From Promethearchaeota archaeon (lineage in GTDB: Archaea; Asgardarchaeota; Lokiarchaeia; Sigyniarchaeales; SOKP01): a DNA stretch of 64,000 nt. Within the stretch, counting starts at the first letter, position 1; every line of letters begins with the position of its first letter. The translations under genes and the position numbers were made by a program. The notes below the pieces were generated by a model that worked only from the letters and a program-made list of their open reading frames with translations, searched no databases and was not told the DNA's origin. Below are positions 15,221 through 46,814 of this stretch, one piece after another. Location: contig JBHLLT010000006.1 in assembly GCA_048938855.1 (NCBI GenBank), positions 41,986-105,985 of the forward strand, in the 5' to 3' direction.

Positions 15221-15664
15221 ATGAAGATGAAGAAAGTAGGGTACAAATTTTTAGATCACACTGCTGACGTTTCAGTCGAAGCTTTTGGTACAACATTAGA
15301 AGAAGCTTTTGAACAAACCGTTTATAGCTTAATGGAGACTATCACTCCTAGTTTAGGAGCAATATCCCCGATTATTGAAAGAAGTGTTGTAATTGAAGCT
15401 GAAGATAAAGAAGCATTATTATTTGATTTTTTATCTGAATTTCTATATATTTTTGATGTAGAAGAACTAATATTCAATAAAATTGAAATTCAACCAATTA
15501 TTAAAGAAAAAAATAAATATATTCTAAAAGCGGTAGCTAAAGGAGAAAAGTTTAATAAGCTCAAACATGAACCTGGAATTGAAGTTAAAGCTATAACTTA
15601 CTCTTTTATGAATATTGAACAAAAAAAGAATGAAGTCAAGATAAATATTATATTTGATATTTAA
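15221..15664 (+). CDS. Archease (RtcB cofactor)
   Basis: FLDHTADV, EVKAITY and C-terminal IFDI; adjacent to rtcB. Confidence 0.95.
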   Translation: MKMKKVGYKFLDHTADVSVEAFGTTLEEAFEQTVYSLMETITPSLGAISPIIERSVVIEAEDKEALLFDFLSEFLYIFDVEELIFNKIEIQPIIKEKNKYILKAVAKGEKFNKLKHEPGIEVKAITYSFMNIEQKKNEVKINIIFDI

Positions 15665-15688
15665 ATTAAAACTAATAATCAAAAGGAT

Positions 15689-17161
15689 TTATCCTTTTAC
15701 TACTCCTACAGGAACTAATCTTACTATTTTTTCAACGATTTCAAGATCGTGGCTCACCTGAACAACTTGATCTATGTCTTTATATGCACCGGGTGCCTCT
15801 TCGGCAATCACTTTCATCGAAGCTGCTCGTACCATAATTCCTTGTTTACTTAAACTATCTTTAACACGTTCTCCCCAATATTTTTTTGTAGCTTTAGCTC
15901 TTGACATTACTCTTCCCGAACCATGCGCAGTGGAACCAAATGATAAATCCATCGCATTCTCCTTCCCAACACATAGATAAGAAGCAGACCCCATAGTTCC
16001 TGGAATTAATACTGGTTGTCCAATAGATTTATATTTTTGTGGTATATCAGGATGATTTGGCGGAAATGCTCTCGTAGCACCCTTTCTATGAACGTTTAAC
16101 TTCATTTTTTTACCATCAATTTCATGTTCTTCAATTTTTAAGATATTGTGGCAAACTCCATAAATAAGGTGTAAATCTAAAGCATCTATATCTCTTTGAA
16201 AGGTTTGCTGAAATGATTCTCTTAACCAATGTGTGATTAATTGACGGTTAGTAAATCCAAAATTAGCTGCACATGCCATTTGTTTTAGATAATTTTGTGC
16301 CTCAGGAGTATTTGCAGGTACGCACGCTAATTCTCTATCTGGTACTTTTATATTATATTGTTTCATAGCCTGCTCAATATTGCGTAAAGAATCTGAACAT
16401 ACTTGATGTCCAAGGGCTCTGCTTCCTGTATGAATCATAACAGTAATTTGATTCTTATCATGAATTCCCAACTTTTCAGCGATACTTTTATTATAAATTT
16501 CATCGACTTTTTGGATTTCTAAAAAATGGTTTCCACTACCTAATGAACCAAGCTGTTTTATTGCACGCTGTTTTGCTTTCAATGAAACCAGTTTAGCATC
16601 TGCATCCATTAAACATCCATTTTCCTCTAAATGATTAATGTCTTCTTCAATAGCATAACCATTATCTAATGCCCATTTTACACCATTATTTAAAACATCA
16701 TCTAACTCTGAATAACTAATATTAAGTTTGCCCTTCGAACCCAATCCTGAGGGGATATTTGTAAATATTCTATCCAATAAATTGGGAAGAACATTCTTAA
16801 TATCATTAAGAAATAAATTAGATCTTAATAATCTTACACCACAATTAATATCATATCCTACTCCTCCAGGAGATATCATTCCTGTATCTGCATCTGTTCC
16901 AGCAACACCACCAATACAGAATCCATATCCTTGGTGGGCATCTGAAAGAGCAATCGCATGTTTTTGTATTCCGGGTAAACAAGCAACATTACAAATCTGA
17001 TCTAATGTCCGATCCAACTTTATTTTCTCCAAAATATAATCATTAGCATAAATTTTTACAGGAACTCTCATCTGAAATTTTTCGATATTTCCTTTAATCC
17101 GCGACATTAATGTTTTTGGAGGAATTTCATAGATATTGTTATCAATTTTATTGACATTCAT
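15689..17161 (-). CDS. rtcB: tRNA-splicing ligase RtcB
   Basis: DAHQGYGF, GYDINCGVR, GSGNHFLE, HRKGATRA, STAHGSGR, EEAPGAYK. Confidence 0.98.
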   Translation of the reverse strand: MNVNKIDNNIYEIPPKTLMSRIKGNIEKFQMRVPVKIYANDYILEKIKLDRTLDQICNVACLPGIQKHAIALSDAHQGYGFCIGGVAGTDADTGMISPGGVGYDINCGVRLLRSNLFLNDIKNVLPNLLDRIFTNIPSGLGSKGKLNISYSELDDVLNNGVKWALDNGYAIEEDINHLEENGCLMDADAKLVSLKAKQRAIKQLGSLGSGNHFLEIQKVDEIYNKSIAEKLGIHDKNQITVMIHTGSRALGHQVCSDSLRNIEQAMKQYNIKVPDRELACVPANTPEAQNYLKQMACAANFGFTNRQLITHWLRESFQQTFQRDIDALDLHLIYGVCHNILKIEEHEIDGKKMKLNVHRKGATRAFPPNHPDIPQKYKSIGQPVLIPGTMGSASYLCVGKENAMDLSFGSTAHGSGRVMSRAKATKKYWGERVKDSLSKQGIMVRAASMKVIAEEAPGAYKDIDQVVQVSHDLEIVEKIVRLVPVGVVKG

Positions 17162-45106: not shown

Positions 45107-46108
45107 TTGACGATTGAAAAGATAATTCAAAAGATTGATGGTTTATTAAAAAAAGCTAATTACGAGACATTAGCACTGGGTAGTTTTGCTACTACAAAAA
45201 GTAAATTCTGTTTTGATCTTTTAGCTAGAAAGGACGATTTAATATTTAGTGTTAAAATTTTTCCTAATATCGATAACTTGAATCAAGATATAATTCGAGA
45301 TATTAAATCTCTATCCTTAATCCTCAAATCAAAACCTTTATTGATTGGAGTCAGAAATCGATATCAAAAATTAGAAGATAACACGATTTATGTAAGAGAA
45401 GATTTACCCTTCATAACACTCAATACATTTGAGAATATACTCAATGATAATTACCCCCATATCTTAGCAAGAAGAGGAGGTGGAATTGTATTTTTAGATG
45501 GTACATTAATGAAAATTCTGAGAGAAAAGCATTCAATAACAAGAAAGGAATTATCAGAAGTCTTAGGAGTGACTAAAAGAACTATTTGTTCATATGAAAA
45601 CGAATCTATGAGACCTTCTGAGAAAATCGCTAAAAAAATATTAGAAATCTTAGATAATAATGCATTATGTAAAAAAATCAACGTTTTTAGCTGGAGTATA
45701 CATAATGAGATAGAAGAAAATGAAATATTTGAAGAACAAGAATTAAGCCATTTTGAATCCCATGTTCAGGATATAATCAAGGATATTGGACTTTCTTCAT
45801 ATTGGTATAAAAAAGGTTCAGTACCTTTCAAATTATCATTATACTCTCACTCTGATGAAAAAAGATTAAATGGATTTTATCCTCTATTTTCCGGTATAAC
45901 AGAAGAACAAGGTAAAATTAAAGAAATGAGCTTTCAATGTTTAAGAATGTTTACAGATTTATTTCATAAAACATCTCTCTTTATTATAGATAATGATATT
46001 AAAATTCCTGAACCATTTAAGAAAATTAAAATTCCAATAATCAAAATTAAAAACCTTGAAGAAGTAGATAATGAGCAAGAATTCATCGAACTCATTCAAG
46101 ATTCATGA
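45107..46108 (+). CDS. Conserved archaeal HTH transcriptional regulator
   Basis: CFDLLAR, NIDNL, ARRGG, central HTH ELSEVLGVTKRTICSYE. Confidence 0.85.
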   Translation: MTIEKIIQKIDGLLKKANYETLALGSFATTKSKFCFDLLARKDDLIFSVKIFPNIDNLNQDIIRDIKSLSLILKSKPLLIGVRNRYQKLEDNTIYVREDLPFITLNTFENILNDNYPHILARRGGGIVFLDGTLMKILREKHSITRKELSEVLGVTKRTICSYENESMRPSEKIAKKILEILDNNALCKKINVFSWSIHNEIEENEIFEEQELSHFESHVQDIIKDIGLSSYWYKKGSVPFKLSLYSHSDEKRLNGFYPLFSGITEEQGKIKEMSFQCLRMFTDLFHKTSLFIIDNDIKIPEPFKKIKIPIIKIKNLEEVDNEQEFIELIQDS

Positions 46109-46814
46109 AGATGAATCCGACCTAATATGTGGGATAGACGAGGCGGGTAGAATCTAATTCTTTTCGAATTATATGTTAAAAGGCTCTGTCTTAGGCCCAA
46201 TGGTTTTATGCGGAATTTGCTTCAAAAAATCTAAAATTGAGTTATTATCAGAAATAGGAGTAAAGGATTCTAAGAAACTGTCACCTAAAAGAAGAAGTGA
46301 ATTAGCAGAAATCTTACAAAATTATTGCTTCTCTATTAAAATCATTATTATTAATCCTCAGGAAATTGATGAGAGAGAGAGTAAAAAAATTACAATGAAT
46401 AGACTTGAAGAATTGAAAATGGCAGAGATCATTAATGAATTGAAACCAGATGTAATATATATTGATGCTGCTGATGTAAATGAAACGAGATTTGGAGATT
46501 CCATAAAAAAATTACTAATATATTCTCCCAGAAAAATAATATCTAAACATAAAGCTGATGACCTCTATCCAATAGTTTCAGCAGGATCTATAATGGCTAA
46601 ATGTAAAAGAGATGCTATGATTGAAGAACTACACAAAAAATACGGAAATTTTGGCTCAGGATACCCTTCAGATGTTAAAACAACTCAATTCCTAAGAGAT
46701 TTTGTGAAAAAACACAAAAAAGCTCCAATAATCGCAAGAAAATCGTGGGATACCACCAAAAAAATAATAAATGAAGAGGTCTCTTCAAAAAAAATAACTG
46801 ATTACCTTAATTAA
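46071..46814 (+). CDS. rnhB: Ribonuclease HII interrupted by a 30-nt candidate intron: join(46071..46150,46181..46814)
   Basis: Exon 1 MSKNSSNSFKIHEDESDLICGIDEAG(R) is in frame with exon 2 GSVLGPMV...GVKDSKKL...IDAAD...HKADD.YPIVSAGSIMAK...GSGYPSD; the insertion contains TAA at 46155. Confidence 0.92.
46151..46180 (+). other. Candidate BHB-type mRNA intron in rnhB
   Basis: GGT AG|AATCTAATTCTTTTCGAATTATATGTTAAA|A GGC; internal hairpin TAATTC/GAATTA; AGA and AAA 3-nt bulges offset by 4 bp. Confidence 0.8.

What the first reader, a model, noticed from the sequence alone, without database searches (positions are those of the whole stretch)
46071..46200. Candidate BHB-spliced mRNA intron inside the catalytic motif of RNase HII
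Seen in sequence: upstream of the track's truncated ORF (46173), the same frame reads ATG(46071)...ICGIDEAGR, then I*FFSNYMLK, then GSVLGPMV. Removing exactly 30 nt (46151-46180) restores the canonical RNase HII motif GIDEAGRGSVLGP; the downstream ORF alone lacks the catalytic D and E. The insert forms a hairpin (TAATTC/GAATTA). Its ends fall after the second nucleotide of two 3-nt bulges (AG|A and AA|A) separated by a 4-bp helix, which is weak (GGGU/GUUA, G-U rich), with exon-exon pairing GAC.GAG/CTC.GTC outside it. Established: this geometry is the substrate of the archaeal tRNA-splicing endonuclease, and such mRNA introns are best known from crenarchaeal cbf5. Inference: an Asgard archaeon splices a protein-coding mRNA with its tRNA-splicing machinery, which could gate RNase HII expression. 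Automated annotation would miss this.
Basis: partly seen in the sequence, partly recalled or inferred. Interest (0 to 1): 0.95.

Follow-up and report, generated by a model that had tools for sequence, protein, structure and literature searches.

The report
tRNA-type mini-intron in Asgard rnhB
The only RNase HII gene of this Asgard (Lokiarchaeia-type) archaeon is broken inside its active-site motif by a 30-base hairpin that 66 related genomes keep at the same spot with compensating mutations, so its messenger RNA very probably has to be cut and rejoined by the tRNA-splicing enzymes, which the papers I could search report inside an archaeal coding sequence only for cbf5.

Summary
Observation confirmed. 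A 30-nt insert (46151-46180, with a TAA) splits the Arg codon of DEAGRG in the genome's only rnhB. An independent assembly has the same insert.

I read it at the same site in 67 genomes of the family (28, 29, 30, 31 nt; TAA, TAG or TGA stops). It is exactly absent from 28 family members and 15 outgroup genomes. Spliced genes are intact (dN/dS 0.086). The bulge-helix-bulge central helix covaries (93% paired, 24-50% when slid), flanking synonymous sites are frozen, and codon conservation fixes the junction at the predicted cuts. The genome encodes a two-subunit EndA with a broad-specificity loop, RtcB and archease. Splicing is very likely (about 0.9), but I could reach no RNA data.

Corrections: here the helix is three G-U pairs plus a G-A mismatch and is not the predicted fold. 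Regulatory gating is unsupported, with at least 11 gains or losses.

Added: all 59 distinct 30-nt copies carry an in-frame stop, and 11 candidate introns in 9 genes of this genome mostly share a hairpin apex. The scan found this intron before in other genomes.

The parts
46071..46150 (+). rnhB exon 1 (probable start ATG 46071, overlapping the upstream HTH gene). Encodes the first catalytic Asp and Glu, and ends with the first two bases (AG) of the Arg codon of GRG
46151..46180 (+). 30-nt intron, phase 2, between the two predicted cuts AG|A and AA|A
   Evidence: junction register fixed by Arg conservation
46181..46814 (+). rnhB exon 2; public annotations start it at the intronic ATG 46173 as a 213-aa protein without D and E
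46155..46157 (+). in-frame TAA in the intron; an in-frame stop is present in 59 of 59 distinct 30-nt homologues
46145..46148 (+). exon strand of the central helix (GGGU here, UGGU in most relatives)
46149..46151 (+). 5' bulge AG|A
   Evidence: AGA 62, AGT 3, AGG 1, AAA 1
46152..46174 (+). intron hairpin, 8 of 9 pairs, closed by C46160-G46166 around the 5-nt loop UUUUC (46161-46165)
46175..46178 (+). intron strand of the central helix (GUUA)
46179..46181 (+). 3' bulge AA|A; the third base (exon) is always A or G
46137..46144 (+). exon 1 strand of the outer exon-exon helix, pairing with 46182/46183-46190; its synonymous positions are frozen
15689..17161 (-). RtcB RNA ligase gene (acts in trans; candidate exon-joining enzyme)
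15221..15664 (+). archease gene, RtcB cofactor, next to rtcB

Best explanation
It is a short tRNA-type intron in the rnhB mRNA. The transcript folds so that exon 1, the intron and exon 2 form a relaxed bulge-helix-bulge. The two-subunit splicing endonuclease, whose catalytic subunit has a crenarchaeal-type broad-specificity loop, cuts after the second base of each bulge (46150|46151 and 46180|46181). RtcB with archease joins the exons, rebuilding the Arg codon of DEAGRG, and a full RNase HII is translated. Unspliced mRNA ends at the intronic stop and gives only a 28-aa peptide; selection seems to keep such a stop. SHOWN: the insert, its conservation, the covariation, the junction register, selection on both exons, and the presence of the enzymes. 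INFERRED: that cleavage and ligation occur, that EndA and RtcB do them, one ancient gain in the family followed by repeated exact losses, and that the intron is a tolerated passenger and not a switch.
For: Same site in 67 genomes of 8 genera of the family; exact absence in 28 family members and 15 outgroup genomes. Lengths of 28, 29, 29 and 31 nt shift the frame unless removed. 33 of 33 full congeneric genes are open for 219-220 codons after excision, dN/dS 0.086. Central helix 93% paired against 24-50% when slid; pairs swap between U-A, A-U and C-G and between U-G, C-G, G-C and U-A; 50 of 58 variable-end cells paired against 31.8 in shuffles, 0 of 20000 as high (kin not independent). Glu codon GAG in 67 of 67 intron-bearing genes against 17 of 28 intron-less; Gly GGA in 0 of 67 against 12 of 28. 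Ala codon: 1 change on the tree against 5-12 at other four-fold sites. The BHB cut gives Arg in 66 of 67 and Lys once (Lys also occurs in intron-less genes); a cut one base later gives Ser in 3, one base earlier gives Lys, Thr or Ile. Only rnhB in a 97% complete genome, and no RNase HI match. Two EndA subunits; the catalytic one is closest to Aeropyrum pernix EndA (E 4.5e-34) and aligns across its loop including K-P-R; that loop confers broad specificity (PMC3241643).
Against: No spliced RNA was seen. In this genome and its clade the BHB form is not the predicted fold (central helix probability about 0), whereas six other congeners have 3-4 Watson-Crick pairs and the helix is predicted at 0.7-1.0 for its inner pairs. 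The outer helix fits a 4-nt bulge as well as a 3-nt one. Relaxed BHB motifs arise easily by chance (10.64898/2026.10.13.758758), so this genome's structure alone would be weak evidence.
Confidence: 0.9

Rival explanations
1. The insert is removed from the RNA, but in this clade inefficiently or by another nuclease or helper factor that recognises the hairpin apex, not by EndA alone.
For: Central helix of three G-U pairs and a G-A mismatch here; conserved apex NNNU(C/A) shared with introns in unrelated genes.
Against: Both ends sit exactly after the second base of 3-nt bulges around a covarying 4-bp helix, the EndA rule. A broad-specificity EndA is encoded.
Confidence: 0.05
2. The ribosome handles it: stop-codon read-through, or hopping over the hairpin as in T4 gene 60.
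For: The 30-nt form is in frame and has a stop followed by a hairpin.
Against: All three stop types, double stops and 28, 29 and 31-nt forms occur. Read-through would put 10 residues into the GRG motif, which binds the substrate (PMC13492167). The triplet before the Gly codon matches an Arg take-off codon in 1 of 67, and the stop lies at different codons of the insert.
Confidence: 0.02
3. Split protein: a 28-aa peptide and the 213-aa downstream ORF (ATG 46173) are made separately and assemble.
For: An in-frame ATG lies in the insert in 33 of 67 genomes and GTG or TTG in 10; databases annotate this ORF.
Against: 24 of 67 have no start codon there. It explains neither the exon-intron covariation nor the junction register.
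Confidence: 0.02
4. Pseudogene or assembly artefact.
For: rnhB can be deleted in Haloferax and Thermococcus (PMC12639248).
Against: dN/dS 0.086, catalytic motif invariant, no second copy, same insert in an independent assembly and in 66 other genomes.
Confidence: 0.01

Closest known systems
cbf5 pre-mRNA intron of Desulfurococcales and Sulfolobales (Watanabe 2002; Yokobori 2009, PMC2738675)
   Same: Short intron in an archaeal coding sequence; splits a codon of the active-site motif; mostly unconventional BHB; cuts after the second bulge base; hetero-oligomeric EndA; patchy distribution with secondary losses.
   Different: Other gene (RNase HII) and other lineage (Asgard, Promethearchaeia). 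Splicing of cbf5 is shown by cDNA, here it is not. Here it is one of at least 11 candidate introns in 9 genes of one genome, with a shared hairpin apex and an apparently selected in-frame stop.
Archaeal tRNA introns at non-canonical positions, abundant in several Asgard classes (10.64898/2026.10.13.758758)
   Same: Size, BHB boundary, predicted enzymes, repeated gains or losses.
   Different: This one lies in an mRNA. That preprint deals with tRNA genes only ('mRNA' does not occur in its text). No tRNA intron or other genomic stretch comes within 5 mismatches of this intron.
BHB intron in the 5' UTR of Haloferax volcanii HVO_1309 (PMC7714728)
   Same: mRNA substrate of the splicing endonuclease.
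   Different: Untranslated region, so removal is not needed to restore a reading frame.
HAC1/XBP1 non-spliceosomal mRNA introns of eukaryotes (own knowledge)
   Same: An mRNA cut by an endonuclease and joined by the tRNA ligase (RtcB in animals).
   Different: Cut by Ire1 at stem-loops, not by the tRNA endonuclease at a BHB, and stress-regulated; no regulation is evident here.

Membership tests
EndA-spliced (BHB) mRNA intron, cbf5 type | Insert interrupts an otherwise intact, selected coding sequence, and exact removal restores the homologous protein | tested here: met
EndA-spliced (BHB) mRNA intron, cbf5 type | Boundaries after the second base of two 3-nt bulges on opposite strands | tested here: met
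   only this register gives Arg (or Lys once) in all 67; the 3' bulge can also be drawn with 4 nt
EndA-spliced (BHB) mRNA intron, cbf5 type | Central helix kept by selection, canonical or relaxed | tested here: met
   4 pairs in 49 and 3 pairs in 18 of 67; compensatory swaps; slide control
Canonical (strict) BHB motif | All four central pairs formed and stable in this genome | tested here: not met
   three G-U plus G-A, probability about 0; it is a relaxed motif here
EndA-spliced (BHB) mRNA intron, cbf5 type | Hetero-oligomeric, broad-specificity EndA and an RNA ligase in the genome | tested here: met
   (by sequence only; specificity not assayed)
EndA-spliced (BHB) mRNA intron, cbf5 type | Spliced mRNA or excised intron detected, or cleavage by EndA in vitro | not testable with these tools
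   no RNA run was listed
Group I, group II or other curated RNA family | Ribozyme core of hundreds of bases, or an Rfam match | tested here: not met
   30 nt; no Rfam match at E up to 1
Translational bypass (T4 gene 60 type) | Matched take-off and landing codons with a stop directly after take-off | tested here: not met
Pseudogene | Relaxed selection, further lesions, or a second intact copy | tested here: not met

The most novel reading that the evidence does not exclude
This family of Lokiarchaeia uses its tRNA-splicing machinery routinely on mRNAs. It carries a class of about 30-nt introns in many unrelated genes, including core ones (rnhB, rpl11, AMP phosphorylase, cdhC). They share a hairpin apex that marks common descent or binds a helper factor, and they keep in-frame stops as a safeguard against unspliced messages. 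That would be a second, non-spliceosomal intron system in the archaeal group closest to eukaryotes.
Probability: 0.6. Interest if true: 0.9.

Novelty: new variant of a known kind. Interest (0 to 1): 0.78.

Why it matters
The literature I could search gives one archaeal coding-sequence intron (cbf5) and one in a 5' UTR. A conserved intron in Asgard rnhB, alongside others in the same genome, would show that protein genes in pieces and routine mRNA splicing exist in the archaeal relatives of eukaryotes without a spliceosome. It makes questions of intron gain, exact loss and safeguards against unspliced mRNA testable in a prokaryote. It also means that many database entries are wrong: 89 of the 120 closest RNase HII entries lack the DEAGRG motif.

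Tried and rejected
RNA evidence: no RNA holder was listed for this stretch, so no reads could be laid; this is no evidence either way. Two scans of metagenome contigs for a spliced junction gave nothing, or 12 contigs that were distant archaea or close to intron-less family members. None of the 120 closest proteins has the spliced form of this clade.

De novo genome scans for BHB introns were uninformative: 102 hits against 79-95 in controls, and 3037 against 2904. I give no genome-wide count from them.

A homology census with 800 kb of two reference genomes tested 356 loci and gave two clear cases: rnhB itself, which the sample was centred on, and an FGGY kinase. This is too small for a reliable total.

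No source of the intron sequence was found in the genome, and no Rfam match. The rps8, MoxR-type AAA and thiolase leads from other genomes showed no interrupted match here.

The phylum-wide list was cut at 150 matches; those outside the family and nine further genomes showed no stop, and one short match was a contig end. This means 'not found in those searched'.

L126 (scaffold gap), L025 (withheld bases) and L036 (contig end) were left out of the trees. Five literature searches found no paper on Asgard mRNA introns, and a sixth returned nothing; subscription journals are mostly not covered.

Full report
Observation. The frame that begins at ATG 46071 runs to ICGIDEAGR, hits TAA at 46155-46157, and resumes as GSVLGPMV. 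Excision of 46151-46180 gives a 237-aa open frame. With the stop read through, Pfam RNase_HII matches from model position 1; the called ORF starts at position 8 and lacks the first Asp and Glu. The insert splits the Arg codon of the GRG motif, which positions the substrate 2'-OH and stabilises the catalytic Glu (PMC13492167). It is the only rnhB match in a 97% complete genome, and no RNase HI was matched. A Logan contig from another run carries the identical insert. Close relatives are labelled mostly Promethearchaeota in their records, which supports the Asgard assignment. The gene follows an HTH gene and converges on fibrillarin and Nop5.

Distribution. All 35 congeners first read carry the insert at the same site, one of them 29 nt long; 15 genomes of other families do not. 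A search of the whole family matched 127 of 135 genomes. I read 95 of them: 67 have an insert (28, 29, 29, 31 and otherwise 30 nt) and 28 have none, with no scar. Sixteen more congeners show the longer span with a stop and were not read. On the protein tree the trait needs 14 changes, at least 11 of them forced by well-supported branches. Intron sequences of several genera resemble each other, so one old gain followed by repeated exact losses is the simplest reading (inference; gene transfer and repeated gains are not excluded, and the tree is a single-gene tree). This lability argues against an indispensable regulatory role.

Not a pseudogene. After excision, 33 of 33 complete congeneric genes are open for 219-220 codons counted from three codons before the motif, with 79 invariant residues and dN/dS 0.086.

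Selection on RNA structure. In the 35-sequence alignment the named BHB structure is 93% paired against 29-47% when slid. Across all 67, the central helix has four pairs in 49 and three in 18, and is 93% paired against 24-50% when slid. The two variable ends swap between U-A, A-U and C-G and between U-G, C-G, G-C and U-A: 50 of 58 cells are paired among 29 distinct helices, against 31.8 in shuffles (relatedness inflates such tests). The exons show the constraint too. The Glu codon is GAG in 67 of 67 intron-bearing genes but in 17 of 28 intron-less ones, and GAG makes up 18% of Glu codons elsewhere in the gene. GGA for the Gly, which could not pair with the bases found opposite, occurs in 0 of 67 against 12 of 28. 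Inside the intron, the core stem columns change 0-2 times on the tree and two loop columns 7 and 11 times.

Junction. In this genome two registers give the same product. Homologues decide it: three begin the insert with U, which gives Ser if the cut is one base later, and a cut one base earlier gives Lys, Thr or Ile. Only the cut after the second base of each bulge gives Arg in 66 of 67 and Lys once. This is the EndA rule (PMC2738675), reached here without assuming the motif.

Caveat. This genome is among the weakest members. A synonymous GCT to GCG change, shared with one sister genome, leaves three G-U pairs and a G-A mismatch. The nearest-neighbour model puts the BHB form about 10 kcal/mol above the minimum fold, whereas six other congeners with UGGU/ACCA-like helices are predicted to form it. 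It fails the strict BHB test and is a relaxed motif. Most cbf5 introns are also unconventional (PMC2738675).

Machinery. The genome has two EndA-family genes. The one with the catalytic-type motifs is closest among solved structures to Aeropyrum pernix EndA and aligns over the crenarchaeal loop with K-P-R kept; that loop and its Lys44 give broad specificity for non-canonical motifs (PMC3241643). RtcB and archease lie side by side in this window.

Rivals. Read-through fails on three stop types, double stops and frameshifting lengths. Ribosome hopping fails on the lack of a matched landing codon (1 of 67). A split protein fails because 24 of 67 inserts offer no start codon.

Two further patterns. 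First, all 59 distinct 30-nt inserts hold an in-frame stop. So do 15 of 15 diverged representatives, at different codons and of all three types, against 6 and 4 in the other frames; the product of shuffle probabilities is 7e-5, with the representatives not fully independent. A stop-free insert would have been visible. Selection therefore appears to favour early termination on unspliced mRNA (inference). Second, following scan notes and my own small census I located 10 further candidate introns in 8 other genes of this genome: rpl11 twice, CaiB twice, AMP phosphorylase, FGGY kinase, cdhC, an RHH gene, a zinc-ribbon gene and an MBL-fold gene. The rpl11-1, AMP phosphorylase and RHH helices have four Watson-Crick pairs. 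I did not test these comparatively, except the kinase against one reference. By minimum-energy folding, 7 of the 11 have a 5-nt apical loop ending in U-C or U-A, three more have the same letters with an extra G-C pair predicted, and the kinase is ambiguous. Among random genomic hairpins 2.2% have such a loop, and 50 of 60 distinct rnhB introns do. The ARAGORN-called tRNA introns do not show it, though those calls are unreliable. Its meaning is open.

Comparison with what is known. It works like, and by every testable feature belongs with, the cbf5 pre-mRNA intron. Splicing itself is untested, and the strict BHB is not met in this genome. The papers found name cbf5 as the only coding-sequence case and HVO_1309 as a UTR case (PMC7714728). 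A 2026 preprint on Asgard tRNA introns does not mention mRNA. The scan's own notes hold this rnhB intron from other genomes; one reports a metatranscriptome contig lacking the 30 bases and two report the same site in DPANN and Bathyarchaeia genomes. I could not check those claims and do not count them as evidence.

Verdict. A real feature and very probably a spliced mRNA intron (0.9): a new variant of a kind with one published coding-sequence example. Interest 0.78.

Noticed in passing
window 15221-17161: Archease and rtcB lie side by side, converging, in this window.
   Followed up: partly
G000 C49 57456-57420 and about 57398-57363 (- strand): rpl11 carries two candidate introns (37 and 36 nt) around a 7-codon micro-exon; the first has a perfect UGGG/CCCA helix.
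   Followed up: partly
G000 C74 52205-52176 (- strand): 30-nt stop-containing intron in the HSTGG motif of AMP phosphorylase, with a perfect UAGC/GCUA helix and the same build as the rnhB intron.
   Followed up: partly
G000 C25 37252-37281 (+); C55 35034-35000 and 34930-34900 (-); C64 19500-19470 (-); C49 457983-457954 and 64133-64105 (-); C70 about 92321-92353 (+): Further candidate introns in an FGGY kinase, CaiB (two), an RHH gene, cdhC, a zinc-ribbon gene and an MBL-fold gene. Registers are approximate for several.
   Followed up: partly
window 46160-46166 and the introns above: Shared hairpin apex NNNU(C/A), mostly closed by C-G, in introns of unrelated genes; 2.2% in random genomic hairpins. 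Unexplained.
   Followed up: partly
window 46071-46121: The probable rnhB start lies 38 nt inside the upstream HTH gene and adds about 17 residues. Four congeners instead have a stop there and a start codon three codons before the Gly, and other genera start nearer the motif.
   Followed up: partly
L112 (G106): One congener has lost the intron exactly, and its flanking codons have relaxed to GAA GCA GGA CGT.
   Followed up: partly
G000 C81 - strand, near base 123354 of the reversed contig: Possible 29-nt insert just after the start of a small methyltransferase-like gene; weak support.
   Followed up: no
G000 contigs C11, C19, C29, C30, C37: Small contigs with GC-rich sequence unlike the rest of the assembly, probably contamination (seen; contamination is given as 7%).
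   Followed up: no
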